DNA from: a bacterium
GTDB lineage: Bacteria > Patescibacteriota > Patescibacteriia > UBA1558 > S5-K13
Assembly (NCBI GenBank): GCA_029555085.1
Contig: JAKPTO010000026.1
Location: 37,217-101,216 of the forward strand
Reading direction: 5' to 3'
DNA length: 64,000 nt
Shown piece after piece: positions 23,196-63,113 of this stretch. A program made the position numbers and the translations under genes. The first letter of the stretch is position 1. The number at the start of each line of letters is the position of its first letter. The notes under the pieces are model-generated. The model saw only the letters and a list, made by a program, of their open reading frames with translations. It did no database searches and was not told where the DNA came from.

Positions 23196-23272
23196 GGAGC
23201 GGTAGTTCAGTTGGTTAGAACGCCTGCCTGTCACGCAGGAGGTCGAGGGTTCGAGTCCCTTCCGTTCCGCCA
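23196..23272 (+). tRNA. tRNA-Asp (anticodon GUC), CCA encoded
   Basis: Manual fold: GGAGCGG acceptor, anticodon stem-loop CCTGC-CTGTCAC-GCAGG, T-arm GAGGG-TTCGAGT-CCCTT, 77 nt. Confidence 0.85.
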
Positions 23273-46584: not shown

Positions 46585-47166
46585 TTAATTATTTAAAAAT
46601 TCAGACCATGTTTTACCAGAACCTGGAGTAATGTTTATTACCCATTTCCCCGGTGCCTTAGTACTGCCTAAAAATATCTGACAAGACAAAACATTTTCAT
46701 CTTTATTTTCATCTATAATAATAGACATTAAACCTTTTGGCATTGAAAAATTAATATCTAATGATTCTAATTCTTTTTCTTCGTATCCAAGTTCTGATTC
46801 ATCTTTAATTTTACACCGTAACTGATCAAAATAAAACTGACTTTCTAAAATATTTTCTGAATAAATTAAATTTTCATTATAAAAACCATAAACACCAATA
46901 TCTGCGTAAATATTATATGAATATGAACCATTTACATCCTTTAAAAAAATTATTCCATAACCATTAATAGGTACTGTATTTTGAATTTTTTGACCTGTTA
47001 GTGAAAGATTTTTTGTAAATCCTATTGAATCTTCTATGTCATAAGCTGTTAAACGAAATTCATTTATTCTTCTTGTATATCCATAATCAAGAATAACAAC
47101 ACTTAAGAGAATTACAAATATACCAATCGCAACTACAACCTCTATTATTGTAAAAGCTTTTTTCAT
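46585..47166 (-). CDS. Type IV pilin/pseudopilin with prepilin-type N-terminal motif
   Basis: MKKAFTIIEVVVAIGIFVILL. Confidence 0.7.
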   Translation of the reverse strand: MKKAFTIIEVVVAIGIFVILLSVVILDYGYTRRINEFRLTAYDIEDSIGFTKNLSLTGQKIQNTVPINGYGIIFLKDVNGSYSYNIYADIGVYGFYNENLIYSENILESQFYFDQLRCKIKDESELGYEEKELESLDINFSMPKGLMSIIIDENKDENVLSCQIFLGSTKAPGKWVINITPGSGKTWSEFLNN

Positions 47167-47960
47167 ATAATTAATAAATTAATATACCAATTCAATAATT
47201 GCTCTCCGAAAAGAAAAGAAATAAACATTGCAAAAGAAATAAATGGTCCAAGAGGAATTTTTAATTTAGTTTTTTCTTTTTTAGATTTAGATAATAAAAG
47301 AAAAATACCAATTATTGCTCCGGAAAAGTAAGTAATCAATAACGCCACAATTGTAATTTTAAATCCCAAAAGCGCACCCATAAAAACCCCGAGCAATATG
47401 TCTCCACTACCAAGCCATTTTCCTTTTGAAATAACATATTGTATACCAAAAAAAATTACTCCGAGAACAATCCCATAAAAAATATTTAAAATATTATTTT
47501 TCATTATTAAATTAAAAATAATAGATAAAACTATCCCCAAATAAACTATAAAATCCACTATTAAATAGTATTTCAAATCATAAATAAATATAAAAGACAA
47601 AATAAATACAAGTATTAAATAAAATATAAAGCTAATAATTAATTGACCATGAAGCCAAAGTCCAGAAACAAAGAAAAACCAATATCCGAATGAAAATAAA
47701 ATTCCTAGAATTACCTCAACAAAAAAATTCTCAAATTGAATCTTTGATTTACAATATCTACATTTCCCAAGTAAAACAATGTAAGAAAAAACTGGAATTA
47801 AATCTAAAATCCCCAATGTTTTTTTACAATTAAGACAATACGATCTATTAAGTATTGATTTTTCTTCATTTATTCGATAAATCAAGCAATCTAAAAAACT
47901 ACCAAAAACAGCCCCTAAAATAAAAAATAGTATATAGAACATACCATTATTATAGCACAA
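47163..47960 (-). CDS. Prepilin peptidase (A24 family)
   Basis: N-terminal zinc-binding CxxC...CxxC (CLNCKK...CRYCKS) and a polytopic membrane domain with GSGD. Confidence 0.8.
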   Translation of the reverse strand: MCYNNGMFYILFFILGAVFGSFLDCLIYRINEEKSILNRSYCLNCKKTLGILDLIPVFSYIVLLGKCRYCKSKIQFENFFVEVILGILFSFGYWFFFVSGLWLHGQLIISFIFYLILVFILSFIFIYDLKYYLIVDFIVYLGIVLSIIFNLIMKNNILNIFYGIVLGVIFFGIQYVISKGKWLGSGDILLGVFMGALLGFKITIVALLITYFSGAIIGIFLLLSKSKKEKTKLKIPLGPFISFAMFISFLFGEQLLNWYINLLII

Positions 47961-49692: not shown

Positions 49693-50262
49693 TTACTTGG
49701 ACATTGTTTCAAAATATGCTTTTGGGTGTTTACATGCTGGACATTCTTCTGGGGCATTTTCTGATTCATGAACATAACCACAATTTCTACAAACCCAATA
49801 AACTTTTTCTGATCTTACAAAAGTAGTATTGTTTTCTAAATGTTCTAAAAATTTCTTATACTTTTCTTCATGATGTCGTTCTGCCTCGGCAATACTCCTA
49901 AGTCTAATTGCAATATCTTTTAAACCCTCGCGTTCTGCTATATCAGCAAATTCTGGATACATTGATGTATGTTCATAATTTTCTCCAGCAATTGCTGCTT
50001 TTAAATTCGCAATTGTATCACCTAAAACAGTAGGACATTCTGAATCAACTTTTATAGCTTCTCCACTATTTTGAGTTAATTCGTTTATAAGTTTCATTAG
50101 AACTTTTGCATGTTCTTTTTCTTGATCTGCTGTTAGTGTAAAGTTAGCTGAAATCTCTTCAAATCCCTCTTTTTTAGCAACAGAAGCATAATAAGTATAT
50201 CTATTTCTAGCTTGTGATTCACCTATAAAAGCTTTTGCTAAATTTTTAATTGTTTCTTGCAT
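49693..50262 (-). CDS. rbr: Rubrerythrin
   Basis: Di-iron ferritin-like domain with a C-terminal rubredoxin-like CRNCGY...CPACKHP. Confidence 0.9.
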   Translation of the reverse strand: MQETIKNLAKAFIGESQARNRYTYYASVAKKEGFEEISANFTLTADQEKEHAKVLMKLINELTQNSGEAIKVDSECPTVLGDTIANLKAAIAGENYEHTSMYPEFADIAEREGLKDIAIRLRSIAEAERHHEEKYKKFLEHLENNTTFVRSEKVYWVCRNCGYVHESENAPEECPACKHPKAYFETMSK

Positions 50263-50339
50263 AATTTTTTAATTAATTATTAATATTTTAAGTATATCAA
50301 ATTCAAACAGCATTATAAAGCGTTGTTAATAGCGTATAA

Positions 50340-51554
50340 TTATTGATAATATTTATTTCTATTATAGTTAAATTCAAAAGATTTATTAAAATCAGATACT
50401 AATGATGGAATATTTGAAACCATAATTGACTCATCGTTTCTAAAAAATCCCCCAGAACTCCAATTATTTGTTCCAAAAAGAGCTATTTTATCATCAAAAA
50501 TCATTAGATGATGGTGTAAAAAAGAATTTAAATTTTGTTCATTAAATATTTGTTTTAATTCTTTATTTCTATTTTCATCAGTCAAAATTTCTAAATTATC
50601 TAAATGATTTTGCTTTTTCTTTTTTATCATAAAATTAAATACGGAACCATCTACTGAAAAATTATAATCATCTGTTAAAATTTTTACACTAATCTTTTTT
50701 GATGCTAATAATAAATCTTCTGCAATATCTCTATCTGTCATAAGCCAAATCATGGATTTTATGTTGTCCTTTGAATTCTCAATCAGATTCAACATTCTAT
50801 CCTTGATACCAGTATTTATTCTTTGTGGAGTAAACCAAATTTCTAAAAATCCTTCTGGATATTTTATAAGAGCAGCGAATGGATTATATTCTTTTGATAA
50901 TTTATCTCTTCCGCGTAAACCAGAAAATATTCTATCAAATTCCTCTCCATATATTTCAATAATTTCTGGCCTGTCAGTTTCTAAAATAAAACTCGGATCA
51001 TATTTATCTTGAATATAAGTAAAATTATAAGAACTAAAGAGTAATTTCTGGGTCTCCTCGCCTCTATCAATTATTATAAATTTATGATGCATGTATTCTG
51101 ATTTTTGAGTATTAATGTTCCTAGACAAAATATCTTTTCTTGTAATATTATCTCGCTTTTCTGAAAACAATCTATTATTTATATCTCTATGCACATCACT
51201 AAAAACTAATTTTATATTCACTCCTCTGTCTGATGCTTTATAAATTGCATCTCTTATCCTTTCGTCGTTCATAGAATAAATAGCCACTTCAATGGTTTTT
51301 TGTGCAGAATTTATAGAATCAATAACAATTTTTGACAAAATGTTTTGTCCAAATTCATCATTAAAATGTAAACTCCCTGAAAATGGTTCTGTGATTTCTA
51401 TGATTTTCGCAGGCCTAAATTCTACTATTCTTCTCTTCGAAAAAGATGTAAAAAATAAGTATATAAAAATTCCCATTGTAATTAATAAAAGAATTGGAAT
51501 TGCCCAAAAAATAAATGTCTTATGTGATTTTTCTAATTTCATCACCCAGCTCAT
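50340..51554 (-). CDS. Membrane-anchored phospholipase D-superfamily (HKD motif) protein; the second HKD motif is degenerate (HxHxxxxD)
   Basis: N-terminal TM segment; HHKFIIIDRG...FSSYNFT is a canonical HxKxxxxD..SxN motif. The second copy HHHLMIFDDKIALFGTNNWS lacks the Lys. Its start overlaps the upstream ABC-like gene by 35 nt. Confidence 0.55.
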   Translation of the reverse strand: MSWVMKLEKSHKTFIFWAIPILLLITMGIFIYLFFTSFSKRRIVEFRPAKIIEITEPFSGSLHFNDEFGQNILSKIVIDSINSAQKTIEVAIYSMNDERIRDAIYKASDRGVNIKLVFSDVHRDINNRLFSEKRDNITRKDILSRNINTQKSEYMHHKFIIIDRGEETQKLLFSSYNFTYIQDKYDPSFILETDRPEIIEIYGEEFDRIFSGLRGRDKLSKEYNPFAALIKYPEGFLEIWFTPQRINTGIKDRMLNLIENSKDNIKSMIWLMTDRDIAEDLLLASKKISVKILTDDYNFSVDGSVFNFMIKKKKQNHLDNLEILTDENRNKELKQIFNEQNLNSFLHHHLMIFDDKIALFGTNNWSSGGFFRNDESIMVSNIPSLVSDFNKSFEFNYNRNKYYQ

Positions 51555-53235
51555 ATTTTTGCTGATAAGTTAAATAATTATTATTTTCTTTTGAAAATAC
51601 TATAATAATAGAATCTTCAAGTTTTTCACTTAATATTTCTATTATTTTTATAATATCATTATAATTCAAATCAATCCAAATATTGTCAATAATAATAAGT
51701 TGTTTTTTATTAACTATGCAATGGAGCGCTTGAAGAGCAAAGCATGAAACATTATTATTAAAAGCCAACACACAAGAAGAATTAACATTATTTATAGAAG
51801 ATATTTTTGATGCAATAAATTGATTTTCAGATATTACCTTGATCACATTTTCAATTTCAGAAGAATTAATTTGTTCTTTATCTTTCCCTAAAATAAACTC
51901 CATCAAACTTTTTTCTGAAAATATTTTAGGATCGAAAAAATATGCGCCACAGAATAATTTTTGCCATATTGGATAATCATATCTTTTATTGTCTATTTTC
52001 ACCTTCATTGCCTTGGGATTATAAATACGCATTCCTGCAAAAATTTTAGCCAAACTTGTTTTTCCTGAAAAATTCTCTCCAAAAAATAAAATTCTTTCTG
52101 ATTTTTTAAAATGAAAATCTAGATTTCTGAAATATTTACCATCTTTAAATAATTTTGTTTTTTTTGCGTGAAACAATATTTCATTATGAATTTTTAAAGT
52201 ATTTTTTCTACGCAAAACTGCTCCTTTTTGCAATACTGTTAAAAACAAACCCAATCTTGCTGGAAAAAAATATAAACCAACTCTTAGCGCTTGATTAAGT
52301 GTTCTTGGAAAATAGAACATTAAAAATAAAAATAAAAATCTATTATCTCTACCAAGTAAATTTATAAAAGAAAAAAACTCATTTGTAAAAAAATTGCTTA
52401 AAATTACAATTATCAAAACTATCACAAATACAATTTTTGCGCTTATTCCAATCCAAAGATTTCTTCTAATGCGAAAAAAAGAATCTATATTAACAAGACG
52501 ATCAAACTTTTGTAGCACACTATCTTCATTATTAAAATTTTTATTAAAATATTTTTCTGATAAGCTAATATCGATATGTTTTATTATTTGTGAATAAAAA
52601 GTGACTTCTTGCGAAATATATTTTTTTGCAACATAATAAGCTATTATTCCTATAAGAATAGAAAGTGCCACGAAAAAAACGAAAACAATAAATAAATTTA
52701 ATCCTATTAAATATGCAATGAGCATTGCCACAGAAAAATATATGAACCATCTAATTATTCCAAAAAAAACAATTGATACACCCATTGAAACAAGCGATAA
52801 TTGATAAGAAATTTTTGCTATTAACCTACCCTGCCTTTCGTTGTTCATTGTTTCAACGGGTCTATCAATAAATGATTTAAATATTCTGCGCCTAATATCA
52901 TTTGCAAATAATACCACAATAGTTTTTTCTTGTTTTATAGAAAAAAATGAACTTATGATAAACAACAATATAAAAATAGCAAAAAATTGCCAAAAAAATG
53001 GGTCTAAAATACTATTTAGCTGAGATAATTTATTTCTACTAAATACAATAAGAAACGCTTCTATTACACAGGAAACAAAAATTAAAAGAACAAGACGCAA
53101 AATATAAAATTTATATTTTTTAAAAAAATCTCGTAAATACCCGTAATGTAAAAACGATAATTTTATATCTTTGTATTTATTCCTTGTTTTTCTAATTTCT
53201 TTTATTAATCTAATTTGTTCTTTTATTTCTTTCAT
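51520..53235 (-). CDS. ABC-exporter-like membrane protein (TMD-NBD fusion) with degenerate ATPase motifs
   Basis: About 330-aa polytopic N-terminal domain, then Walker A GENFSGKTS, a degenerate signature VSCFALQAL (versus LSGGQ) and Walker B LIIIDN (no catalytic Glu). It overlaps the RT stop by 26 nt. Confidence 0.5.
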   Translation of the reverse strand: MKEIKEQIRLIKEIRKTRNKYKDIKLSFLHYGYLRDFFKKYKFYILRLVLLIFVSCVIEAFLIVFSRNKLSQLNSILDPFFWQFFAIFILLFIISSFFSIKQEKTIVVLFANDIRRRIFKSFIDRPVETMNNERQGRLIAKISYQLSLVSMGVSIVFFGIIRWFIYFSVAMLIAYLIGLNLFIVFVFFVALSILIGIIAYYVAKKYISQEVTFYSQIIKHIDISLSEKYFNKNFNNEDSVLQKFDRLVNIDSFFRIRRNLWIGISAKIVFVIVLIIVILSNFFTNEFFSFINLLGRDNRFLFLFLMFYFPRTLNQALRVGLYFFPARLGLFLTVLQKGAVLRRKNTLKIHNEILFHAKKTKLFKDGKYFRNLDFHFKKSERILFFGENFSGKTSLAKIFAGMRIYNPKAMKVKIDNKRYDYPIWQKLFCGAYFFDPKIFSEKSLMEFILGKDKEQINSSEIENVIKVISENQFIASKISSINNVNSSCVLAFNNNVSCFALQALHCIVNKKQLIIIDNIWIDLNYNDIIKIIEILSEKLEDSIIIVFSKENNNYLTYQQKYELGDEIRKIT

Positions 53236-54427
53236 AATGAAAGTCTAAATAAAAATTATATAATGATTTTATTTTTAAATATTCTATCTCTTTTCTTAAC
53301 AACCTTCTGTTGCGTGGTGAATATTTACCAAATATAAAATCTGTTAAAATACGGAAAAAATCTTCTGATAATTTTTTTATTTGTTCTGAGTTATTGATTT
53401 GTGGTTTATCTTTTATAATTTTTTGAAATTGGTAGTTAAAATTTTTTTCTGGATGTCCCATAATCCTTCTCAGTAAATACTTTTTTTTACTTAAATTATA
53501 ATTTTTATATTTTAAAATACTTTTCCAACCAGCAATAATACGCTTAATATATGATTTTTCTAAACTAATAATTCCTGAATTAAAGCAGTAGCCTAAAAAA
53601 GAAAAATTTTCTTTTGCATCACCAATAAATAATTTGCTATTATTTATTGTTAAATTTCTAATATTCAAATCTTTGATAATTTCTAATTTTAATTTATTTA
53701 GCTTGTCTATGTTATTATCAAAAATACCTATATCATCTCCTATTCTTATATAAAATGAACATTGTTTTTGATATTTATGATCAAGGTCTGTTAAATATAA
53801 ATTATTAAAAAGTGCTATTAGTGGAACACCCTGGACAAGACCTATATCAGGTGCTTCTATCTTACCATTTTTATATATTTTATTAAAAATAAATAATTTT
53901 AATAAATCTAATATTTTTCTATCTTCAAAAATGTTTTCCAGTTGTGAGTATAAAACATTCTTATCAATCAAGTCAGAATAGTTTTCCAAATCTAACACTA
54001 ATGCTTTGTCTGTAGAAAAATTTTTCCTATATCTATGGCAAAAATTTTTTGCTGCAAAATATGGTGGCTTGCCCGGCCTATATGAAAACAATCTTTTTGA
54101 AAAAACTTTTTCAAATTCTGGTAATAAAACTCTATAAATTGCCTGTGCTTTTATACGATCTTTTATATTATAAATAAAAATATCCCTGAATTTCTCGGGA
54201 TTATTTTTTTTAGGAATTGAAACAATAAGTGCTGGCTCAATTTCCCTATTTTCAACTAATTCTTTTTGACAAATATCTATAAGCTCCTTTGAATTTAAAT
54301 CTCTGTCTTGTATTGAAATATTATCCAAACCGTGATATCTAAAACTTTTACTATCTATAGAAAATTTTTCCACTATATCTAAATAAGCAGATCGAATATT
54401 ATCATAAGATACAATTTTATTAAACAT
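53210..54427 (-). CDS. Stand-alone reverse transcriptase (retron/defence-associated RT-like), IGDD active-site variant
   Basis: RT motifs 0-7: SYDNIRSAYLDI; IPKKNNPEKFRDIF...IKDRIKAQAIYRVLLPEFE; FSYRPGK; ALVLDLENYSDLID; GLVQGVPLIALFNNLYLTDLD; YIRIGDDIGIF; FLGYCF. There is no endonuclease or maturase domain and no room for group II intron RNA. Confidence 0.75.
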   Translation of the reverse strand: MFNKIVSYDNIRSAYLDIVEKFSIDSKSFRYHGLDNISIQDRDLNSKELIDICQKELVENREIEPALIVSIPKKNNPEKFRDIFIYNIKDRIKAQAIYRVLLPEFEKVFSKRLFSYRPGKPPYFAAKNFCHRYRKNFSTDKALVLDLENYSDLIDKNVLYSQLENIFEDRKILDLLKLFIFNKIYKNGKIEAPDIGLVQGVPLIALFNNLYLTDLDHKYQKQCSFYIRIGDDIGIFDNNIDKLNKLKLEIIKDLNIRNLTINNSKLFIGDAKENFSFLGYCFNSGIISLEKSYIKRIIAGWKSILKYKNYNLSKKKYLLRRIMGHPEKNFNYQFQKIIKDKPQINNSEQIKKLSEDFFRILTDFIFGKYSPRNRRLLRKEIEYLKIKSLYNFYLDFHYERNKRTN

Positions 54428-54433
54428 ATTTTT

Positions 54434-54615
54434 AAAAATCGTCCTCAGGATATATAATAAAAATACTATATATTAATAAATCTAATGAAGACCCCCGTCC
54501 ACAAACTGGTTACAACCGTTTCCATTTTAATTAATTCGATATTAACGAATATAAAAAATTAAAACTAAAACGATTATTAATATCTCCTAAAATAGGAGTT
54601 TTGAGGATGATTTTT
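54434..54615 (-). other. Noncoding region bounded by a 14-bp inverted repeat, directly upstream of the RT gene; candidate msr/msd-like ncRNA locus
   Basis: AAAAATCGTCCTCA (54434-54447) and TGAGGATGATTTTT (54602-54615) are reverse complements with one mismatch, 154 nt apart. An internal hairpin CTCCT-AAAAT-AGGAG lies at 54584-54598. The GC-rich segment gacccccgtccacaaactggttacaaccgtttcc is also present. The proximal arm lies 10 nt from the RT start codon. Confidence 0.35.
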
Positions 54616-54694
54616 AAAAGTACATAATATATTATAGCATGTCAATAAAGCGTATGTAAAGAATAAATATATAATTTTGTGATATAATTAATCT

Positions 54695-56758
54695 ATGAAT
54701 CTAGATACAACACTTGATAAAATCTACGGAATAGGTCCAACAATCTATAAAAAATTACAAAAAATCGGATTAAATACAATATCTGATGCTATTTTTTATT
54801 ATCCATTTAGATATGAAGATTTTTCCCATTTAAAACAAATAAATGAGCTTGTAAATGAAGAATCTGCCACTATAAAAGGAAAAATCATACTTTTAAACAA
54901 TAAGAGATCTCCTAGAAAAAAAATGAATATCACTGAAATGCTTTTAGGAGATGATTCCGGACAAATTCAGATAATTTGGTTTAATCAACCATATATTAAA
55001 AATATATTACAAATTGGAGATGAGATATTTGTTTCAGGTGTTGTAAAAAAATCACTTTTGGGATTATCACTTATAAATCCAAATTATGAAAAAACTAATA
55101 GAGACACATCACACACTGCAAGAATTATTCCTATATATCCATCAACAGAGCATTTATCACAGAAACAACTTAGATACATAATAAAACAATCCTTGTCTTG
55201 TATAAATGAATTACATGAAAGGTTACCAAGTCAAATTATTAAAAAAGAAAATTTAATAGAAATAAAAGAGGCAATAAAACAAATTCACTTTCCAGATAAT
55301 TATAAAAAATTAGATCTTGCAAAAAAAAGATTATCATTTGATGAAATATTTTTATTATCATGTTTATCAAAATTTATTAAAAAACAAAATATTGAATTAA
55401 GCGCTCCTCAAATTAATTTCAAGGAAAAACAGATAAAAGATTTAGTAAAAAAAATTCCATTTAAATTAACAGAAGATCAAAGAAAGGCAACCTGGCAAAT
55501 TCTAAAAGATATTAGCCACAAAATTCCAATGAATAGACTTCTTGAAGGCGATGTAGGAAGTGGAAAGACAATTGTTTCTTTTATCTGCGCTTACAATGTA
55601 ATCTTGAACAAATATCAAGCAATTTTAATGTCTCCTACTCAGATTTTAACAAAACAACACTTTGAAAATGCTGTAAAATTTTTCAAGGACTATGATATTA
55701 ATATTTTACTTTTTACAAACTCTGACAGATTATTATTTAATGGAAAAAAACAATTAGCACAAAAATTAACAAAAAAAGAAATTAATAAGTTTGTCAAAAA
55801 ATCTGATTTTATAATAGGAACTCATTCTTTAATTCAGCAAAATGTAGAATTCAAAAATATTGGGCTCATAATAATTGACGAGCAACACAGATTCGGAGTT
55901 AAGCAGCGTCAAGAATTAACAAAAAAATCAGATATTAGTCCACACTTTTTATCAATGACTGCAACTCCAATTCCAAGATCTCTAGCGCTTACAATTTATG
56001 GAGATTTAGATATTTCAAAAATTTTACAAAAACCAGCAAACAGAAAAAAAATTATTACAAAATTTGTATATTCTCGCAACAGAACAAAAGCTTATGAATT
56101 TATTTATAACCAGATCCAAAACGGCAGACAAGTTTTTGTTGTGTGTCCACTTATAAATGAATCGGATAAATTAGGAGTAAAATCCGTAATGAGTGAATAT
56201 GAAAAATTAAGCAACGACATTTTTCCAAATTTAAAAATAGAATATTTACATGGAAAAATGAAAGAAACAGAAAAGCAAAAAATTCTAAAAAGTTTTTCTG
56301 ACAATGAAACAAAAATTTTAGTATCAACTTCTGTTATTGAGGTTGGAATTGATTTTCCAAATGTAACAATAATGATAATTGAAGGTGCTGATAGATTTGG
56401 ATTGGCATCACTCCATCAATTTCGAGGTCGTGTTGGTCGCGGAGAACATCAATCATTTTGCTTTTTATTTTCTGAATCAAACTCAGAAAAATCCCGTAAA
56501 CGTTTAGAAATATTAACAAAAACAGATAATGGATTTGAACTCGCAGAATATGATTTAAAATTTCGTGGAAGTGGAGATTTGTATGGAATAAAACAATCAG
56601 GATTTATGAATGGAGTGAAAATTGCAGATTTATCAGATTTAGAATTAATCAAAAAATGCAATATTTGGGCTCAATATATTTTTGAAAAAGGTCTTGAAAA
56701 ATTCCCTCAAATAAAAAAAGAGATAGAATTACTATCTTCTGATATTCACTTGGAATAA
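54695..56758 (+). CDS. recG: ATP-dependent DNA helicase RecG
   Basis: N-terminal wedge/OB domain; Walker A GDVGSGKT; DEQH box IIDEQHRFG; TATPIPRSL; QFRGRVGRG. Confidence 0.9.
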   Translation: MNLDTTLDKIYGIGPTIYKKLQKIGLNTISDAIFYYPFRYEDFSHLKQINELVNEESATIKGKIILLNNKRSPRKKMNITEMLLGDDSGQIQIIWFNQPYIKNILQIGDEIFVSGVVKKSLLGLSLINPNYEKTNRDTSHTARIIPIYPSTEHLSQKQLRYIIKQSLSCINELHERLPSQIIKKENLIEIKEAIKQIHFPDNYKKLDLAKKRLSFDEIFLLSCLSKFIKKQNIELSAPQINFKEKQIKDLVKKIPFKLTEDQRKATWQILKDISHKIPMNRLLEGDVGSGKTIVSFICAYNVILNKYQAILMSPTQILTKQHFENAVKFFKDYDINILLFTNSDRLLFNGKKQLAQKLTKKEINKFVKKSDFIIGTHSLIQQNVEFKNIGLIIIDEQHRFGVKQRQELTKKSDISPHFLSMTATPIPRSLALTIYGDLDISKILQKPANRKKIITKFVYSRNRTKAYEFIYNQIQNGRQVFVVCPLINESDKLGVKSVMSEYEKLSNDIFPNLKIEYLHGKMKETEKQKILKSFSDNETKILVSTSVIEVGIDFPNVTIMIIEGADRFGLASLHQFRGRVGRGEHQSFCFLFSESNSEKSRKRLEILTKTDNGFELAEYDLKFRGSGDLYGIKQSGFMNGVKIADLSDLELIKKCNIWAQYIFEKGLEKFPQIKKEIELLSSDIHLE

Positions 56759-56793: not shown

Positions 56794-58131
56794 TTAAATT
56801 AAAAACTTTTTAAGTTCTTTTATATTTTTGATACAATTCAAATTAATTCCTTTTACATCAACTGCTTTTTCAAAACTTGGAATAATTATATTTTTAAATC
56901 CTAAATTCACTGCTTCTTTTATTCTCTCTTTTGTTTTTGGTATTTGTCTAATTTCTCCATTGAGTCCTACTTCACCAAAAAATACTGAATTTTCCATAAT
57001 TTTTTTATTTTCATATGATGAATAAATTGCCACCGCAACCGCTAAATCAAGCGCGCGGTCCGAAACTTTGAAGCCACCAGTTAAATTAATATAAACATCA
57101 TATAAATTTAATTTTAAATCTAATTTTGATTGAAGTACTGCTATAAGTAATTCTAATCTTTTCTGATCATAACCAGATACGGTTCTTTTTGGATAACCAA
57201 AATTTGTTTTTGATACAAGTGCTTGAAGTTCTAACATTAAAACCTGATTTCCTTCTATAATAGAAGTAATTGCCGTGCCTGAACTTTCTGGATTAATTGA
57301 TGACAAATAAATTTTTGATGGATTTATCACTTCTTTAAATCCTGATTTTGTCATCTCTAAAATTACCGACTCATCAGTTGCTCCAAATCTATTTTTAACA
57401 GATTTCAAAATTCTAAATCTATGCAATCTATCACCTTCAAGACTCAGTACGCAATCAACTAAATGTTCCATTGTTTTAGGTCCCGCTAAATCACCTGATT
57501 TATTTACATGACTTATGATGAGAGTTGCAATATTAAATTTTCTTGCAATTTCCATAATTTTTACAGTACAAGCCCTTACTTGCGCGACTCCACCTGGATC
57601 GCTTTCAATCTCACTCGTGTAAAGTGTTTGAATTGAATCTATAATTAAAAAATCTGGTTTGATTTTTAATATTCCAGCTAGAATTATTTCTATATTATTT
57701 TCTGCCAAAAACTTTACTACTTTACTATCAACTTCCAATCTATCAAAACGAGATTTTACTGAACTTGCACTCTCTTCTCCTGAAACATATAAAGTATTTA
57801 AACTCTTGTTTATAATTTGAGAAATAATTGTAGATTTTCCAATCCCCGGCTCACCACCAAGTAAAACCAAAGAAGAAGGAACTAATCCTCCTCCGACTAC
57901 TTTATCAAAATAAGTTAATCCTGTTTTTATTTTTTTAACTTGTTCATTTTTTATTTTTGACAAATCTATGAAATCAACTTTTAAATCTTTTAAATTTTCT
58001 GTTTTGTCTTTTCTTTCGTCTTCGATAAATGTTTCTTTTTCTAATGTTCCCCAAGCACCACACTCAATACACTTTCCAGCCCATTTCGGAAATTGTGCTC
58101 CACATTTTGAACATGAATATATTGTTTTCAT
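56794..58131 (-). CDS. radA: DNA repair protein RadA (Sms)
   Basis: N-terminal zinc finger CSKCGAQFPKWAGKCIECGAWG, Walker A GGEPGIGKST, KNRFG motif, Lon-like C-terminal domain. Confidence 0.9.
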   Translation of the reverse strand: MKTIYSCSKCGAQFPKWAGKCIECGAWGTLEKETFIEDERKDKTENLKDLKVDFIDLSKIKNEQVKKIKTGLTYFDKVVGGGLVPSSLVLLGGEPGIGKSTIISQIINKSLNTLYVSGEESASSVKSRFDRLEVDSKVVKFLAENNIEIILAGILKIKPDFLIIDSIQTLYTSEIESDPGGVAQVRACTVKIMEIARKFNIATLIISHVNKSGDLAGPKTMEHLVDCVLSLEGDRLHRFRILKSVKNRFGATDESVILEMTKSGFKEVINPSKIYLSSINPESSGTAITSIIEGNQVLMLELQALVSKTNFGYPKRTVSGYDQKRLELLIAVLQSKLDLKLNLYDVYINLTGGFKVSDRALDLAVAVAIYSSYENKKIMENSVFFGEVGLNGEIRQIPKTKERIKEAVNLGFKNIIIPSFEKAVDVKGINLNCIKNIKELKKFLI

Positions 58132-58157
58132 TTAATTATATTAGTTTTATATTTATA

Positions 58158-59570
58158 TTATCTACCGATTCCCTTTCTTGCTATATTCTCAAATCCTAAT
58201 TCTTTGCATTTATTATAACGAGCTAATTTTAAATTACCAGTAGAAATAGCCCACTGACTCGTTGTGCCTCCAGCATATCTTCTAAAACAAAGTTCCAAGT
58301 TACCATCTTTACAATACTGATGTTTCCATCCTAAAACAAAAGCTTCTAAATTAGAATCAATAGTTAATAATGAATCAAAACTAAAACACTTATTTTGATA
58401 TATAAAACCATTATTATTATTACATAAAATATCTTGTTTAGAATGGTAAGTAATTTGACCCAAACCCAATCCAAATGTATAACCTTTTTTATTTATATAG
58501 TTTTTCCAATTAGAAATAGAGACCCCTGGAATATTTTTATCATAAACATACTTAGAGCAATTAGGATTATTACACAACTCTCTTTTATTGCTATTAATTT
58601 TTCCTGCCAACCAATCCTTGCAACAAGAAGGATAAAGATTACATATATGTGCCCTGCGAGCAATAATATCACAAGCCGTGTCTCTAGTAACAGCCGAGTC
58701 ATTGCCAAATGCTCTTGGGTCTCCTCCTGATTCTTGATGAATTACAGCATAATAAATACACTCATCTATATTGTTCCACTTAGCAGACTTTTGAATACCA
58801 ACAATTACTTCCTCAGAAAAAATATGACTATCACCAACAGATTTTATATTAGACCCAGATCCAATATAAGAACCACTACTAGCTAATTCATATCTATCAA
58901 CTTCAATAGGTATAATCTTCTCCACCTTTATTGGTACTATATTCAACAAGGCTGGATTTATTGTTTGGAGTATCAAAACAGAAGAAACGCATAAAACAAA
59001 CCCTATTAAAGCATTTTGTAGTCTTGATTTAGCTTCCCCTATTTTACTCTGATTTCCTCCTGCTAATACCCACTGAAAACCAGCCAATATTATTGCTAAA
59101 ACAGCCACGATTCCTGATAAATATATTAAATATCTAAAAAGTACTACTAAAAAATCTCCAATCAAAGCACCGCTTACCTCTACTTCACTTCTAAAACCTG
59201 GTATTCCGACTTCTGGAGTAAATGATATAGATTTTGGTTCCCCAGGAGTTTCATCTACGCCTTCATTTGAATTATTTTGACAATCAGAAGCCCATTGTTT
59301 AATAGCCTCCTGTTTATAGTGATTACGAAATTCAATATCATGCACAACTTCAGCTGGAAATCCAGCTGCCGTATTCTGCAACTCCCTATCCATCCAAGTC
59401 GTATACAAACCCTGATAATCAACGCTAGATTTATTTAAATCAGTGGCCGGACAATAACTCGGCCTTAAGTATTTTAAATTGGGATCATCCGGTAACTGTG
59501 CCTCTACGCCTCTAAAAAAAAACAGAAACGCTACACTAAAAATAAATAAATATCTCCTTATCTTATTCAT
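58158..59570 (-). CDS. Secreted/membrane protein with a VirB2/TrbC-like paired-TM segment and a C-terminal Cys-rich lytic transglycosylase (SLT/VirB1-like) domain
   Basis: Signal peptide. Two hydrophobic helices separated by a short loop (…GFQWVLAGGNQSKIGEAKSRLQNALIGFVLCVSSVLIL). The SLT catalytic motif IHQESGGDPRAFGN...FGLGLGQIT has many Cys residues in inserts. Confidence 0.45.
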   Translation of the reverse strand: MNKIRRYLFIFSVAFLFFFRGVEAQLPDDPNLKYLRPSYCPATDLNKSSVDYQGLYTTWMDRELQNTAAGFPAEVVHDIEFRNHYKQEAIKQWASDCQNNSNEGVDETPGEPKSISFTPEVGIPGFRSEVEVSGALIGDFLVVLFRYLIYLSGIVAVLAIILAGFQWVLAGGNQSKIGEAKSRLQNALIGFVLCVSSVLILQTINPALLNIVPIKVEKIIPIEVDRYELASSGSYIGSGSNIKSVGDSHIFSEEVIVGIQKSAKWNNIDECIYYAVIHQESGGDPRAFGNDSAVTRDTACDIIARRAHICNLYPSCCKDWLAGKINSNKRELCNNPNCSKYVYDKNIPGVSISNWKNYINKKGYTFGLGLGQITYHSKQDILCNNNNGFIYQNKCFSFDSLLTIDSNLEAFVLGWKHQYCKDGNLELCFRRYAGGTTSQWAISTGNLKLARYNKCKELGFENIARKGIGR

Positions 59571-59574
59571 ATTT

Positions 59575-60237
59575 TCATTTGATAATTGATTTTATAATAT
59601 TTTCCAAATTTTCTTGAGTTATCTCACCTTCAAATTTTTGTTGATTTATAAAAATTGTTGGAATTTGCTCTACTTTAAGCACATATGCCTCCACTATATT
59701 ATTATCTATATCTTCCAAGTACTTCTGCGAAGAATAACATGATACAAATTTATTTGTATCCATTTTTAATTTTTCTGAAATTCTTTTATATAAATCTAAA
59801 GAAAATTTTTCATCGGTATTTAGTAACTCATTATTATATTCCCAATATTTATCCTGCTCAAGAGAACAACGAGCCGCTAGAGCTGAACCCTTTGAAAAAA
59901 TATTTGTAGAAAGTGGCAAATCTTTCCAAACCAAATTAACATCTTTTGGATATTTTTTTATTATTTCATCTATAATATTCAAAATATTTTTTGTTTCACT
60001 TGTTTCATAATCAGTAAATAAATAAATACTAACCTGTGTATTCCTCTCTCCTTTAATTGGATCATTTATAAATGATGATAATAAATATTTTTCTTGGGTC
60101 GTGGTTTCCACAATTTGCTTTTCATTTTTAATTTTTATAATCTTATAAAAATTAAACAAATTATAAAATAAAAAACTAAGACCTATTAGAATAAAAATCA
60201 TTACAATAATTGAAATTATTTTGTCTTGCTTGTTCAT
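59575..60237 (-). CDS. DsbA-like thioredoxin-fold protein lacking the CxxC motif (membrane-anchored)
   Basis: The DsbA-like context VSIYLFTDYETSET has the CPxC replaced. Compare the intact paralogue at 40070-40783. Confidence 0.45.
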   Translation of the reverse strand: MNKQDKIISIIVMIFILIGLSFLFYNLFNFYKIIKIKNEKQIVETTTQEKYLLSSFINDPIKGERNTQVSIYLFTDYETSETKNILNIIDEIIKKYPKDVNLVWKDLPLSTNIFSKGSALAARCSLEQDKYWEYNNELLNTDEKFSLDLYKRISEKLKMDTNKFVSCYSSQKYLEDIDNNIVEAYVLKVEQIPTIFINQQKFEGEITQENLENIIKSIIK

Positions 60238-60265
60238 TTTTTTATCAAATATTGAATATTAAATT

Positions 60266-61501
60266 TTATTTCAAATCAATACTATATAGATACCCAGTAG
60301 ATGAATCTATATAATACATCTGTGAATCATTCTGATTCGTATATATCTTATCTATTGAAATTCTATTATTATTTACCATTGGCTGGGCAATTATTTGCTG
60401 ATTTCCTGTTGATATATTTATTTTATAAATAGAATAAGGAATTCCACTTGCTAAACCCGGATTAAGCCCAGCTCCTCTTGGCATAGAATCTGGCACAGCA
60501 CAATAAACAACATCATTATTTGATTGACTAAAAGAACATTTATTTATCCAGGTATTTATTCCCATAGATACCTTCCCATAACCCAAATCGTCTCCCTGAC
60601 CATTTGCAAACCACAAAGTTGGCTTAAAATCGCTTCTCTGTGATGTAACATTATATAGAAGTTTATCGCCTTGCGTATTCCACATACCATCAAAATTAAA
60701 ACCATCAACAACCAATGATCTTAAATTTTTATCATCTTCATTGATAAAATATATTTCCTGTCTTTCTAAATCATATTGTTTTCTAAAGGTTGCCATCACC
60801 TCGCCATTTGGGCTCCAAATATTTTTTATATTCCTTGCCTGATCAGCTATCGGCCTTATAAATTTGAAATTACTCGCGTCTGAATTAGAAGTGACTAAAT
60901 AATTCTGATCTTCATAATCACCCATCCATTTATAAGACAATTTATCACCTGTTTCAGAAAAAGCAAAGTCTTGAGTTTCTTGTGGAAATCTTGCTATAAA
61001 TTCTTCTCTTTCAAAATCATACAATACTTTTGTATTATCTGGATATTCTAAAATTGCTTGATTTTTTGTGGGTGAAAAAGTTGCATTAGTTACAGAATAA
61101 AATTTCCTATCAGATAATTTAGAAATAGTACCATCCCCTGAAACCTTGAAAAAACTCTGATTCAAATTATCATAATACACAACTCCATTATTTACTGCGC
61201 TATAAGTGTTTATGCTTGCTATATTTTTACCAACAACTTCTTGAGAATTTGTTACTAGCTCTTCATCTGTTCCCATAATTTCTGGTTTAGTTGTGATAAT
61301 TGTCTCGCCTCCAGTATCTATTATCTGCGGACCACCAATACCAACATCTGGAAACCCTACATCACTAGGCGTGGTATCAATTGGTGAAGAAATTGGTTCT
61401 TGCTTTCTTGCAAAAAATGTAAAATAAATAAGAAAAGCCATTCCGATACTAACCGCTAAAAAAAGTAATATTAAAATTATTTTTTTTGTATTTTCAGGCA
61501 T
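60266..61501 (-). CDS. Membrane-anchored periplasmic beta-propeller-like (TolB-like) protein
   Basis: N-terminal TM segment; repeated beta-strand-rich blocks with a WSPNG-type motif. Confidence 0.4.
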   Translation of the reverse strand: MPENTKKIILILLFLAVSIGMAFLIYFTFFARKQEPISSPIDTTPSDVGFPDVGIGGPQIIDTGGETIITTKPEIMGTDEELVTNSQEVVGKNIASINTYSAVNNGVVYYDNLNQSFFKVSGDGTISKLSDRKFYSVTNATFSPTKNQAILEYPDNTKVLYDFEREEFIARFPQETQDFAFSETGDKLSYKWMGDYEDQNYLVTSNSDASNFKFIRPIADQARNIKNIWSPNGEVMATFRKQYDLERQEIYFINEDDKNLRSLVVDGFNFDGMWNTQGDKLLYNVTSQRSDFKPTLWFANGQGDDLGYGKVSMGINTWINKCSFSQSNNDVVYCAVPDSMPRGAGLNPGLASGIPYSIYKINISTGNQQIIAQPMVNNNRISIDKIYTNQNDSQMYYIDSSTGYLYSIDLK

Positions 61502-61619
61502 TGTAATTTTATTATTTTATAAAATATTTAAATTAATTTTTTATAATTTATCATCAATCGCCACCAAATATTGATAAAAAATACTATCCATTCTTTCACA
61601 GTTAAACTTTTCAACGTTT

Positions 61620-62513
61620 CTAAGTAACCCCTAGTAAATCCCCTATTGCAGACTTTAGTAAGTCTAATAAATCTTTTATAGCATCGATAGGATCTGTTAA
61701 AATATACCCTATTAAAAATAATAGTAAAAATATAATTGTCAAAAGTGCTATAATTATAGCTCCTATAAGAACAAAAGCTATCATTGCTCCATGGTTCATT
61801 TTATCCTTACCTTCTAATATTTCTTTTGTCGCTAGGGCTGGATTTGTTATAGAAACAAAATGACAAAATAACTGACTACCCATTATATATTTACCTATAA
61901 AATGAAATGCCAAATAAAACCATGTTAAACCATAACTATCGATTAAATGTTCATAAGAAAACTTATAGGCGGCAAAAGATGCTAACTTTAATTTGTTTTT
62001 AGCTTTTGTTTTAGCATCAGCTGCCTTTTTCTTAATATTAGCAATTCCCTGTCCTAATTTACTATTTCTTAATTTCTCTTTTTGTCTTTCTAAAAATCTT
62101 GCCTTTTGTTTTGCCTGTTCAAGAGCTGCTTTTGGATTTTCATCTGGATCAATGGTTTGAGAAATTTCTGAATTATCATTCTGAGCATTGACATTATCTG
62201 AATTATCTTGATTTGTATCTGATTGCCTGTAGTCTGGTTGTTGATTTATTGCACCAATGGTACTTAAAGGTAAATCGCTATTGCTTGGCCTAACTAATCC
62301 ACTCTCACCCTCTCTTTTCGCAGTCTCCCTACCCTGTCTTAACTGTGAAATAGGCCCCCTTAAATCTTCTGGGGTCGACGCCTCTTCCAAAAATTCTGTT
62401 CCATATTTTATAGAGGATTTAACTCCCCCAGTAATACCACCAACTTCATTTCTAACTGCACCAGCAACAGTTTTAAAGCGTCTCCCAATAGTTGATGATG
62501 CTTTACTTGGCAT
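61620..62513 (-). CDS. Hypothetical membrane protein (polar N-terminal region, C-terminal multi-TM region)
   Basis: The C-terminal third carries 3-4 hydrophobic helices. It may be a T4SS membrane component; no diagnostic motif was found. Confidence 0.35.
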   Translation of the reverse strand: MPSKASSTIGRRFKTVAGAVRNEVGGITGGVKSSIKYGTEFLEEASTPEDLRGPISQLRQGRETAKREGESGLVRPSNSDLPLSTIGAINQQPDYRQSDTNQDNSDNVNAQNDNSEISQTIDPDENPKAALEQAKQKARFLERQKEKLRNSKLGQGIANIKKKAADAKTKAKNKLKLASFAAYKFSYEHLIDSYGLTWFYLAFHFIGKYIMGSQLFCHFVSITNPALATKEILEGKDKMNHGAMIAFVLIGAIIIALLTIIFLLLFLIGYILTDPIDAIKDLLDLLKSAIGDLLGVT

Positions 62514-62517
62514 AATA

Positions 62518-63081: not shown

Positions 63082-63113
63082 ACAATTTTATTTCAATTAA
63101 TTATTATATTAAA

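What the first reader, a model, noticed from the sequence alone, without database searches (positions are those of the whole stretch)
50340..54694. Candidate retron-like / defence-associated RT system: ncRNA-like IR region, RT, degenerate ABC membrane protein and PLD-family protein in one overlapping operon
Three minus-strand genes overlap start to stop (26 nt and 35 nt), which implies co-translation. They are a stand-alone reverse transcriptase with no intron, maturase or endonuclease context, a polytopic membrane protein with an ABC ATPase domain whose catalytic motifs are degenerate, and a membrane-anchored two-HKD PLD-family protein whose second motif is degenerate. Immediately upstream of the RT lies a ~180-nt noncoding stretch bounded by a 14-bp inverted repeat whose proximal arm sits 10 nt from the RT start codon. 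This geometry resembles the a1/a2 repeats around a retron msr-msd. An RT plus ncRNA plus ATPase/nuclease-like effector is the logic of retrons and DRT/Abi-type defence systems. This particular effector pair (inactive ABC exporter plus membrane PLD) is not one I can match to a named system. The operon is wedged between an oxidative-stress cluster and recG, and lies a few kb from a T4SS-like cluster.
Basis: partly seen in the sequence, partly recalled or inferred. Interest (0 to 1): 0.88.

Follow-up and report, generated by a model that had tools for sequence, protein, structure and literature searches.

The report
Reverse transcriptase, structured RNA, membrane pair
A tiny-genome (Patescibacteria) bacterium carries a tightly conserved, apparently undescribed four-part module: a ~195-nt pseudoknotted RNA, a group-II-intron-like reverse transcriptase, a catalytically dead ABC-exporter-like membrane protein and a membrane-anchored PLD-family phosphodiesterase. 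It has the layout of the RT-plus-RNA anti-phage systems but uses different parts, and its function is unknown.

Summary
The three minus-strand genes overlap by 26 and 35 nt. The inverted repeat upstream of the RT is the closing helix (P1) of a conserved ~195-nt structured RNA (54428-54622). The RNA has five helices plus a pseudoknot, with massive covariation across 50 homologous loci. RNA, RT, ABC-like and PLD genes co-occur in all ~65 loci examined, down to about 30% identity. The three proteins co-evolve (r = 0.92-0.94), and flanking genes are not conserved.

The RT is closest to group II intron RTs and keeps its catalytic Asp residues. No intron RNA, DGR repeats, cas genes or retron hallmarks are present.

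The ABC-like protein has a full exporter fold but keeps only Walker A, the Walker B Asp and the D-loop. This holds family-wide.

The PLD has one canonical HKD motif and one conserved HxH(x)4D variant. By sequence it is nearest the Nuc/Zucchini/NucT nucleases. Its catalytic domain is predicted to lie outside the cell.

Best reading: a new RT-ncRNA system with membrane effectors, restricted to Patescibacteria. It follows retron/DRT logic but belongs to neither family. A defence role is plausible but unproven. I found no prior description.

The parts
54631..54660 (-). Promoter-like site TTTACA-18 nt-TATAAT with TG before the -10 box. The predicted transcription start is at about 54622, the 5' end of P1.
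   Evidence: Best promoter match in 50000-55000, 11 of 12. A -10-like box 7-15 nt upstream of the RNA 5' arm is visible in most homologous loci (sequences).
54428..54622 (-). Conserved structured non-coding RNA (RT leader RNA), about 195 nt: P1, P2, pseudoknot, P3, variable P4 region, conserved single strand, P5.
   Evidence: Covariance model R1 hits 54425-54617(-) at 120.9 bits, E 2e-25. Covariation: 90.1% of cells paired against 67% shuffled, and 53 of 56 pairs show double changes. Fold z = -6.4. No Rfam family matches.
54602..54622 (-).
   Evidence: All 17 P1 pairs show compensatory changes and 92% of cells are paired.
54427..54447 (-). It is purine-rich (UGAGGA) and runs up to the RT start codon.
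   Evidence: The 3' arm ends 0-8 nt before the RT ATG in most loci.
54585..54597 (-). P2 short hairpin (UCCUA...UAGGA).
54577..54583 (-). Pseudoknot 5' strand AUAUUAA.
   Evidence: It pairs with the apical loop at 54539-54545. The helix was not part of the covariance model, yet 98.8% of cells are paired and 6 of 7 pairs are compensatory.
54512..54577 (-). P3 long helix with internal loop and a distal 4-bp hairpin. The 7-nt apical loop UUAAUAU (54539-54545) forms the pseudoknot.
   Evidence: P3 is present with a different sequence in every locus. Helices 4-6 covary. Coordinates.
54478..54509 (-). Variable region (P4): one to three hairpins, hypervariable in length and sequence between loci.
   Evidence: Alignments.
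54470..54490 (-). Conserved, mostly unpaired stretch CUUCAUUAGAUUUAUUAAUAU (family consensus CUCAUUGgAUUUAAU).
   Evidence: Conserved in all clades. Role unknown.
54450..54473 (-). P5 hairpin, directly 5' of the P1 3' arm.
   Evidence: 10 of 11 pairs are compensatory. Coordinates.
53210..54427 (-). Reverse transcriptase, 405 aa, group-II-intron-like. It has an RT0-like N-terminus, the catalytic Asp146 and the G-D-D triad at residues 230-232. A basic C-terminal domain carries the conserved motif SPRNRRLL.
51520..53235 (-). ABC-exporter-fold membrane protein, 571 aa (six-helix transmembrane domain plus nucleotide-binding domain). Walker A, the Walker B Asp and the D-loop are kept. The catalytic Glu is replaced by Asn. 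The Q-loop Gln, the LSGGQ signature and the H-loop His are lost.
50340..51554 (-). PLD-superfamily protein, 404 aa, with one N-terminal transmembrane helix. HKD1 is canonical (HHKFIIID...SYN). HKD2 is the variant HHHLMIFD...GTNNWS. The catalytic domain is predicted to lie outside the membrane.

Best explanation
This is a stand-alone four-component reverse-transcriptase system found only in Patescibacteria.

Shown:
- A promoter-like site lies just upstream of a ~195-nt RNA that forms the 5' part of the operon.
- The RNA folds into a P1-closed, pseudoknotted structure that is conserved by covariation.
- It is followed by three overlapping, co-evolving genes: a group-II-intron-like RT with intact catalytic residues, an ABC-exporter-fold protein that can probably bind but not hydrolyse ATP, and a membrane-anchored two-HKD PLD-family enzyme.

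Inferred:
- The RNA is the RT's dedicated partner. The RT binds it and uses part of it as template or primer scaffold, most likely the region between P3 and the P1 3' arm (variable P4, the conserved single strand, P5).
- That region occupies the place that msd occupies in a retron RNA.
- P1 also buries the RT start region, so RT synthesis is kept low or self-limited.
- The RNA-RT complex or its cDNA product controls, or is handed to, the membrane pair, which acts as the effector.
- I think the most likely biological role is conflict or defence: an abortive-infection or exclusion system with the same logic as retrons and as DRT9/DRT10 with their membrane partners.
For: Co-occurrence and gene order hold in 61 of 61 genome loci plus L081-L083 and L085. 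Conserved overlaps point to translational coupling. The three proteins co-evolve, r = 0.92-0.94.

RNA:
- The covariance model finds it next to family RTs only, including clades absent from the seed.
- Covariation score is 0.662 against 0.267 shuffled (0 of 500 shuffles reach it) and 0.09-0.15 for slid controls. The pseudoknot is 98.8% paired although it was not modelled.
- Intact second RNA copies occur in five loci. One is followed by a terminator-like hairpin rather than a gene, and the two copies in L009 differ by compensatory changes in P1. This argues for an RNA that works as an RNA, not only as a leader.

Proteins and context:
- The RT catalytic residues are invariant.
- The ABC-like and PLD families are small and isolated, and were found only in this module.
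- Distribution is sporadic: about 61 loci among 185,579 species genomes. Some genomes carry two divergent copies and flanks vary.
- A relative with 88% identical RecG has a different gene upstream of recG, and no trio gene lies on the 11.8 kb held, only 1.7 kb of it upstream of recG.
- Precedent for ncRNA + RT + membrane protein comes from DRT10 and related systems (PMC12632851).
Against: - There is no direct evidence of cDNA synthesis, RNA binding or anti-phage activity.
- Neighbours are housekeeping, pilin or giant-surface-protein genes, not recognisable defence islands.
- The PLD catalytic domain is predicted to be outside the cell (N-tail 5.0 K/R against 2.2 after the helix). That is awkward for an effector regulated by a cytoplasmic cDNA.
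- In L003 two pilin genes lie between the RNA and the RT, so tight RNA-RT adjacency is not absolute.
- Only one of 2.9 million viral contigs carries the module, so there is no link to mobile elements.
- No template could be identified in the RNA.
Confidence: 0.5

Rival explanations
1. Envelope or export function rather than immunity. The RT makes a nucleic-acid product from the RNA. The product is passed through or docked on the ABC-like membrane protein, then cut or transferred outside the cell by the exofacial PLD. Possible purposes are surface decoration, extracellular DNA, host interaction or nucleic-acid/lipid scavenging in these host-dependent bacteria. In a variant, the ABC-like/PLD pair remodels scavenged lipids and the RT-RNA only regulates it.
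For: - The PLD domain is predicted to lie outside the cell.
- The ABC-like protein has a complete exporter fold resembling MsbA, PglK and PCAT1.
- Neighbours are enriched in cell-surface genes. Pilins lie upstream in 11 loci and between the RNA and the RT in L003. Giant surface proteins and single-pass membrane proteins flank the distant clade.
- PLD3/PLD4 and NucT are type II or exported PLD nucleases.
Against: - With no catalytic Glu, signature motif, Q-loop or H-loop, ATP-driven export is unlikely.
- No export of reverse-transcribed DNA is known in bacteria (own knowledge).
- The module is rare and patchy, whereas a scavenging function should be widespread in Patescibacteria.
- Pilin genes are abundant in these genomes, so adjacency may be chance.
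Confidence: 0.2
2. The RNA is only a cis-acting 5' leader: a riboswitch, or an autoregulatory site where the RT represses its own translation, as LtrA does at group II intron domain IVa. The RT then acts on other substrates.
For: - The RNA begins at the predicted transcription start and its P1 3' arm ends 0-8 nt before the RT ATG in most loci, so P1 buries the initiation region.
- Its size and complexity resemble large riboswitches. Tandem arrangements are also known for riboswitches (own knowledge).
- In L003 the RNA precedes pilin genes plus the trio, as a leader might.
Against: - The RNA is found only with this RT family.
- The first copies in tandem pairs do not abut a start codon, and one is followed by a terminator-like hairpin, yet they keep the full structure with compensatory changes.
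- A hypervariable internal region flanked by a rigid core is typical of RT template RNAs.
- No metabolic genes that would suggest a ligand are associated.
Confidence: 0.15
3. It is a genuine but divergent retron. The RNA is an msr-msd, P1 is a1/a2, and msDNA is made from P5 and the variable region.
For: The layout matches a retron: promoter, 5' arm, small hairpins, a hairpin directly 5' of the 3' arm, then the RT gene and accessory genes on the same strand.
Against: - The RT scores with group II intron RTs (GsI-IIC 2e-32; TIGR04416 4e-36), far above retron RTs (Ec86 1e-6; PADLOC retron models 8e-6 and 3e-5).
- There is no conserved G after the 5' arm.
- A pseudoknotted core is not a retron feature, and the effector types are not among described retron types (own knowledge; Mestre 2020, PMC7736814, not re-read here).
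Confidence: 0.03
4. It is a remnant or unusual form of a mobile group II intron or of a diversity-generating retroelement.
For: The RT is most similar to group II intron RTs and RT-Cas1. DGRs that diversify surface proteins are common in these bacteria (own knowledge).
Against: - No Rfam group II intron domain reaches the gathering score anywhere in the window, and none reaches E <= 10 in 54300-54800.
- The RT ORF is overlapped by the next gene, so no 3' intron domains can follow it.
- There is no endonuclease domain.
- Purifying selection acts across about 190 clusters with an invariant 401-405 aa length.
- The RNA has no template/variable repeat pair in the window or in the 14 loci tested, and no Avd-like gene is present.
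Confidence: 0.03

Closest known systems
Retrons (msr-msd RNA + RT + effector)
   Same: A promoter-proximal structured RNA closed by a long-range inverted repeat lies directly upstream of the RT on the same strand. A hairpin sits next to the 3' arm. Co-transcribed accessory genes co-evolve with the RT.
   Different: The RT lineage is group-II-like, not retron. There is no conserved branching G. The RNA has a covarying pseudoknot and a long P3. The accessory proteins (dead ABC exporter, exofacial two-HKD PLD) are not known retron effectors. msDNA has not been shown.
DRT systems with ncRNA and membrane partners (DRT10/UG17 + SLATT; DRT9; DRT2)
   Same: Tripartite logic of ncRNA + RT + membrane protein. 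The RNA is encoded upstream, and a conserved structural core surrounds a poorly conserved internal region (PMC12632851). The RT core gives partial matches to the UG26 and UG17 profiles.
   Different: The RT scores at least as well with group II intron profiles. The membrane proteins are unrelated to SLATT. No defence-island context is seen. A second, enzymatic membrane protein (PLD) is obligatory. The system is restricted to Patescibacteria.
Group II intron RTs and free-standing group-II-like RTs (G2L4, RT-Cas1)
   Same: These are the best sequence matches (GsI-IIC RT 2e-32, Cas6-RT-Cas1 2e-26). The RT0-like N-terminus and the ANLYL/xGDD motif context are shared.
   Different: No intron RNA, maturase-class score (125 bits against a cutoff of 300) or endonuclease domain is present. 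No cas genes or CRISPR array are nearby. The match to G2L4 is weak (5e-9).
Zucchini/MitoPLD, NucT, Nuc and PLD3/PLD4 (PLD-family nucleases)
   Same: These are the nearest sequence relatives of each PLD half (5e-18 to 1e-14). Whole-protein fold matches include the two-HKD, N-terminally anchored PLD3/PLD4 5' exonucleases. Like Zucchini and PLD3/4, the protein is held on a membrane by one N-terminal helix.
   Different: One polypeptide carries two unequal HKD motifs, with Lys replaced by His in the second, conserved family-wide. The substrate is unknown. It is obligatorily coupled to an RT and an ABC-like protein.
Type I/IV ABC exporters (MsbA, PglK, PCAT1, TM287/288)
   Same: Full-length fold match: six-helix transmembrane domain plus nucleotide-binding domain.
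   Different: All hydrolysis and dimerisation motifs except Walker A, the Walker B Asp and the D-loop are lost in every member. The family is so divergent that its profile finds only 1,295 of 1.84 billion representatives at E <= 1e-3.

Membership tests
Retron | RT belongs to the retron RT clade | tested here: not met
   PADLOC retron RT models score only 8e-6 and 3e-5 against 7e-39 for the generic RT model. In PDB, Ec86 RT scores 1e-6 against 2e-32 for group II RTs. TIGR04416 scores 4e-36.
Retron | ncRNA directly upstream of the RT, closed by inverted repeats a1/a2 | tested here: met
   P1 is 17-21 bp, covaries and ends at the RT ATG.
Retron | Conserved branching guanosine at the end of the 5' arm | tested here: not met
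   The positions after P1 are conserved AAAC/ACAC. A G occurs there in only a few sequences.
Retron | Production of branched msDNA | not testable with these tools
   Needs an experiment.
DRT / UG-Abi reverse transcriptases | RT falls in the UG/Abi clade | tested here: inconclusive
   UG26 scores 2e-31 and UG17 4e-25 over the RT core only. Group II profiles score equally or better. No phylogeny was run. UG38, a Parcubacteria group in PMC9226505, gave no PADLOC hit, but I could not confirm that a UG38 model is in the library.
DRT / UG-Abi reverse transcriptases | Enrichment next to known defence genes | tested here: not met
   Flanks are recG, radA, rubrerythrin, ribosomal proteins, folD, pilins and surface proteins. 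One locus has Mrr_cat/DUF4365 nearby. No formal enrichment statistic was computed.
DRT / UG-Abi reverse transcriptases | Anti-phage activity dependent on RT catalysis | not testable with these tools
   Needs an experiment.
Group II intron | Ribozyme domains I-VI surrounding the RT ORF | tested here: not met
   No Rfam intron family matches at gathering score in the window, or at E <= 10 in 54300-54800. The RT stop is overlapped by the next gene.
Group II intron | RT/maturase reaching the family cutoff | tested here: not met
   TIGR04416 scores 124.9 bits against a cutoff of 300, and only the RT part aligns.
Diversity-generating retroelement | Template repeat / variable repeat pair and an Avd gene | tested here: not met
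   The RNA region has no second copy in the window or in the 14 loci tested, apart from tandem RNA duplicates. No Avd-like neighbour is present.
CRISPR-associated RT | Adjacent cas1/cas2 or a CRISPR array | tested here: not met
   The neighbour Pfam list has no Cas families. No array lies in 40000-64000. The Cas1_IIIb PADLOC hit covers only the RT part of that fusion profile.
ABC exporter (type I/IV fold) | Transmembrane domain plus nucleotide-binding domain fold | tested here: met
   AF2 model pLDDT 82. Full-length Foldseek matches to PCAT1, MsbA, PglK and TmrAB. Pfam matches are just above their cutoffs.
ABC exporter (type I/IV fold) | Catalytic motif set (Walker B Glu, Q-loop, LSGGQ, H-loop) | tested here: not met
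   The family consensus keeps GK[ST] and the D of Walker B, followed by an invariant N. The other motifs are absent.
PLD superfamily (HKD) | Two HxK(x)4D motifs on a bilobed PLD fold | tested here: met
   H156/K158/D163 and H347/H349/D354 are invariant. The second Lys is replaced by His in all members. AF2 pLDDT 93.6, with PLD fold matches at E 1e-17 to 1e-20.
PLD superfamily (HKD) | Nuclease rather than lipid substrate | tested here: inconclusive
   The profile is nearest Zucchini, NucT and Nuc. The fold matches nucleases, lipases and synthases equally well.

The most novel reading that the evidence does not exclude
A new kind of reverse-transcriptase machine that works across the membrane. 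A domesticated group-II-like RT copies part of its own pseudoknotted leader RNA. The product, or the RNP itself, engages a nucleotide-binding but non-hydrolysing ABC-exporter shell. It is then presented to, or gated towards, an exofacial PLD phosphodiesterase. Reverse-transcribed nucleic acid would thus be coupled to a cell-surface reaction (export, surface attachment or sensing of the outside). Neither retrons nor DRTs do this, and it may be specific to the host-attached lifestyle of Patescibacteria.
Probability: 0.2. Interest if true: 0.95.

Novelty: new variant of a known kind. Interest (0 to 1): 0.82.

Why it matters
If it works as inferred, it adds a fourth independent lineage of RT-plus-RNA cellular systems to retrons, DGRs and UG/DRT systems. 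This lineage derives from group II intron RTs.

It comes with a new RNA family and two effector types not seen before in such systems. One is an ABC exporter that has lost ATPase chemistry family-wide. The other is an outward-facing PLD enzyme.

It would be one of very few candidate immune or conflict systems specific to Patescibacteria, a huge and poorly understood part of bacterial diversity that has few CRISPR systems.

The RNA is well defined (boundaries, pseudoknot, variable insert). The RT is small (about 400 aa). The system is therefore directly testable in vitro and could interest the retron/DRT tool-building field.

Even if the role is not defence, the strict coupling of an RT to two membrane proteins needs a new explanation.

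Tried and rejected
- **Rfam.** No family matched the RNA, either across the whole window at gathering score or across 54300-54800 at E <= 10.
- **DGR idea.** I searched the window and 14 loci for a second copy of the RNA region. Only tandem RNA duplicates turned up.
- **A fourth conserved gene.** Clustering 446 flanking ORFs gave none that is universal. A 196-aa single-pass protein follows the PLD in 12 loci and precedes the RNA in 2, all in the distant clade. It has no Pfam match.
- **Phage carriage.** One IMG/VR contig carries the module, and it has the same giant-protein neighbourhood as bacterial loci. PHROGs gave only generic RT, ABC and PLD families.
- **Literature.** Eight full-text searches, including by protein accession, found no description. 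The supplement of Mestre 2022 is not held, so UG38 membership could not be checked by accession.
- **Most distant members.** Model R1 missed the RNA in L081 and L082. By eye, L082 has the same architecture in divergent form; L081 was not resolved. No second model was built.
- **Template search.** Looking for a template or A-B-A' repeat in the conserved single strand gave nothing convincing in this AT-rich sequence.
- **Presence/absence test.** The recG-anchored scan of metagenome contigs returned only one relative, so the evidence is thin.

Full report
**What is in the window**

Three minus-strand ORFs lie at 53210-54427 (405 aa), 51520-53235 (571 aa) and 50340-51554 (404 aa). They overlap by 26 and 35 nt. 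Pfam assigns RVT_1 to the first, ABC_membrane plus a partial ABC_tran to the second, and two PLDc_2 domains to the third.

Upstream of the RT, a 21-nt inverted repeat that is 90% complementary joins 54602-54622 to 54427-54447. The contig is a Patescibacteria (CPR) metagenome assembly.

**The four elements form one unit**

The RT has 188 homologues at E <= 1e-3. Nearly all are about 401 aa long, and every source name that gives a taxon names a Patescibacteria group.

A scan of one genome per GTDB species returned 61 loci of this family, L002-L062. In every one, as far as the contig reaches, an ABC-like gene and then a PLD gene follow the RT. This holds down to 32% RT identity. recG and rubrerythrin are kept only in the closest relative.

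Further points:
- Overlapping reading frames recur almost everywhere.
- Searches started from the PLD and from the ABC-like protein recover only strong hits from Patescibacteria.
- Their most distant hits still sit in RT-ABC-PLD trios among unrelated housekeeping genes.
- A full HMM search of 1.84 billion representatives finds only 89 clusters of the ABC-like family at E <= 1e-30. It barely touches ordinary ABC transporters.
- A hit at 94 bits is again in a trio.
- Pairwise identities of the three proteins correlate at r = 0.92-0.94 over 53 loci.

**The RNA**

Upstream regions of the family align well, and the alignment shows compensatory changes. RNAalifold recovers P1, a 7-bp helix and P5 with many double substitutions. 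Per-sequence folding shows a long P3 in every locus, each with a different sequence.

I built a covariance model of 199 positions and 49 pairs. Its behaviour:
- It scores the window at 120.9 bits, at 54425-54617(-).
- It finds the RNA upstream of family RTs in clades that were not in the seed.
- It finds nothing next to the unrelated RTs L063-L080.

On the 51-row alignment (50 plus-strand RNA copies plus one reverse-strand match):
- 90.1% of cells pair, against 67% after shuffling.
- 53 of 56 pairs show changes on both sides.
- The covariation score is 0.662, against 0.267 for shuffles (0 of 500 reach it) and 0.09-0.15 for slid controls.
- The pseudoknot between the strand 5' of P3 and the apical loop of P3 was not in the model. 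It is nonetheless 98.8% paired, with 6 of 7 pairs compensatory.

Window coordinates are in the parts list. The window RNA folds at -53.3 kcal/mol, z = -6.4. The best promoter match in 5 kb ends at 54631, which puts the transcription start at the 5' end of P1. No Rfam family matches.

**Features that bear on the RNA's role**

- The P1 3' arm ends 0-8 nt before the RT ATG in most loci. P1 therefore buries the initiation region.
- Five loci carry a second, intact RNA copy in tandem. In L009 the first copy is followed by a truncated RT start and a terminator-like hairpin, and it differs from the second copy by compensatory changes in P1.
- The region between P3 and the conserved single strand is hypervariable, while the core is rigid.
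- In L003 two pilin genes lie between the RNA and the RT.

The order of elements is 5' arm, small hairpins, a hairpin next to the 3' arm, then the RT gene. This is the order in a retron RNA. However, the nucleotides after the 5' arm are a conserved AAAC, not a G.

**The RT**

Profiles place it nearest group II intron RTs:

| Profile or structure | Score |
|---|---|
| TIGR04416 (group II RT/maturase) | 4e-36, 125 bits against a cutoff of 300 |
| GsI-IIC RT | 2e-32 |
| Two gut-bacterial group II RTs | 3e-29 and 5e-29 |
| Cas6-RT-Cas1 | 2e-26 |
| DRT2 | 2e-11 |
| G2L4 | 5e-9 |
| Ec86 retron RT | 1e-6 |

PADLOC gives a generic RT model at 7e-39, UG26 at 2e-31 and UG17 at 4e-25 over the RT core. 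Asp146 and the G-D-D triad at residues 230-232 are invariant.

The locus has none of the companions that define the known RT classes:
- no intron RNA domain;
- no TR/VR repeat;
- no cas gene or CRISPR array.

Mestre et al. 2022 describe UG26 with a YcjD-like partner and UG38 in Parcubacteria without partners. Neither matches this module, though I could not formally exclude UG38.

**The membrane proteins**

The ABC-like protein models as a complete exporter half-transporter (pLDDT 82). Its nearest sequence relatives in PDB are PCAT1, MsbA, TM287/288 and PglK. Across the family only Walker A, the Walker B Asp and the D-loop survive. The catalytic Glu is an invariant Asn. The Q-loop Gln, the LSGGQ signature and the H-loop His are gone. 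I infer nucleotide binding without hydrolysis.

The PLD models with pLDDT 93.6. It matches two-HKD enzymes including PLD3/PLD4, vaccinia F13, PssA and a bacterial PLD. By sequence profile each half is closest to Zucchini/MitoPLD, NucT and Nuc. HKD1 is canonical. HKD2 is an invariant HxH(x)4D.

The N-terminal tail averages 5.0 Lys/Arg in 15 residues, against 2.2 after the transmembrane helix, over 40 members. By the positive-inside rule the catalytic domain lies outside the cell. This is an inference, not a measurement.

**Distribution and context**

About 61 loci occur among 185,579 species genomes, found with a pattern-limited search. Four genomes carry two divergent copies. Flanks vary and are mostly housekeeping. 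Recurrent neighbours are pilins (11 loci). In one clade they are giant repeat proteins, a 196-aa single-pass protein and membrane-anchored cupredoxin-like proteins.

A relative with 88% identical RecG has a different gene upstream of recG, and no trio gene lies on the 11.8 kb held, only 1.7 kb of it upstream of recG. Only one viral-database contig carries the module. The pattern is that of an accessory cassette. It is not visibly a defence-island resident.

**Interpretation**

Shown: a conserved, co-evolving unit of promoter, structured RNA, catalytically intact group-II-like RT, dead-ATPase exporter-fold protein and membrane-anchored PLD.

Inferred:
- The RNA is the RT's partner and at least partly its template.
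- P1 limits RT translation.
- The membrane pair acts downstream of the RNP.

I judge a conflict or defence role most likely, by analogy with retrons and with DRT systems that pair an ncRNA and an RT with membrane proteins. The rivals are an envelope or export function, suggested by the outward-facing PLD and the surface-gene neighbours, and a purely cis-regulatory leader. Retron, intron and DGR memberships each fail defining tests.

**Novelty**

Eight full-text literature searches, including by accession, found no description. I classify the module as a new variant of the RT-plus-ncRNA-plus-effector kind. It has a new RNA family, an RT lineage not previously tied to such systems, and unprecedented effectors.

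Noticed in passing
L009 5522-5707 and 5825-6003; L014 5632-5801 and 5811-6003; L030 5606-5783 and 5796-6000; L037 927-1194 and 1233-~1520; L062 5396-5660 and 5700-5989: Two tandem copies of the leader RNA lie upstream of a single RT. The copies differ mainly in the variable P4 region. The first copy in L009 follows a tRNA-like 3' end and is followed by a truncated RT start and a terminator-like hairpin.
   Followed up: partly
L003 2794-5992: Three paralogous type IV pilin genes surround the RNA. Two of them lie between the RNA (3812-3987) and the RT (6001), so the RNA here precedes pilins plus the trio.
   Followed up: partly
L037-L062, e.g. L044 11-5680, 10173-10763 and 10789-12029; L084 41-5719: In one clade the module sits in a conserved neighbourhood. 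This comprises giant 1,200-1,900 aa proteins with GNVGIGTTNP repeats (no Pfam match), a 196-aa single-pass protein (no Pfam match) and membrane-anchored cupredoxin-like proteins.
   Followed up: partly
L086 1709-4905: An RT 28% identical to the window RT (E 5e-37, sharing family motifs) lies convergent to, and overlaps by 4 nt, a more canonical ABC exporter. No PLD is present on this 5.3-kb contig. It may be a relative or precursor of the RT-ABC association.
   Followed up: partly
L087 1-11776: A metagenome contig encodes a RecG 88% identical to the window's. It shows no RT, ABC-like, PLD or rubrerythrin gene on the 11.8 kb held, and a different gene lies upstream of recG. Only 1.7 kb upstream of recG is held.
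   Followed up: partly
window 21522-21912 and 23196-23269: A tmRNA gene (91 bits) and a tRNA gene, about 30 kb from the module. There is no sign that they mark an integration site for it.
   Followed up: no
window ~57700-64000 (L001 1-6270): A T4SS-like or conjugation-like set (P-loop_TraG/AAA_10 ATPase, T4SS_pilin, DsbA-like thioredoxin) lies next to radA. Prepilin peptidase and pseudopilin genes lie at 46585-47960.
   Followed up: no
L002-L058 record titles: Many third-party MAG records that carry the module are titled 'uncultured Gammaproteobacteria', although their gene content and nearest relatives are Patescibacteria. This is probably a labelling artefact.
   Followed up: no
L084 (IMGVR_UViG_3300001866_000229): This is the only viral-database contig with the module. 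It has the same giant repeat proteins as the bacterial loci. Their tail-fibre-like ends may explain why it was called viral.
   Followed up: partly
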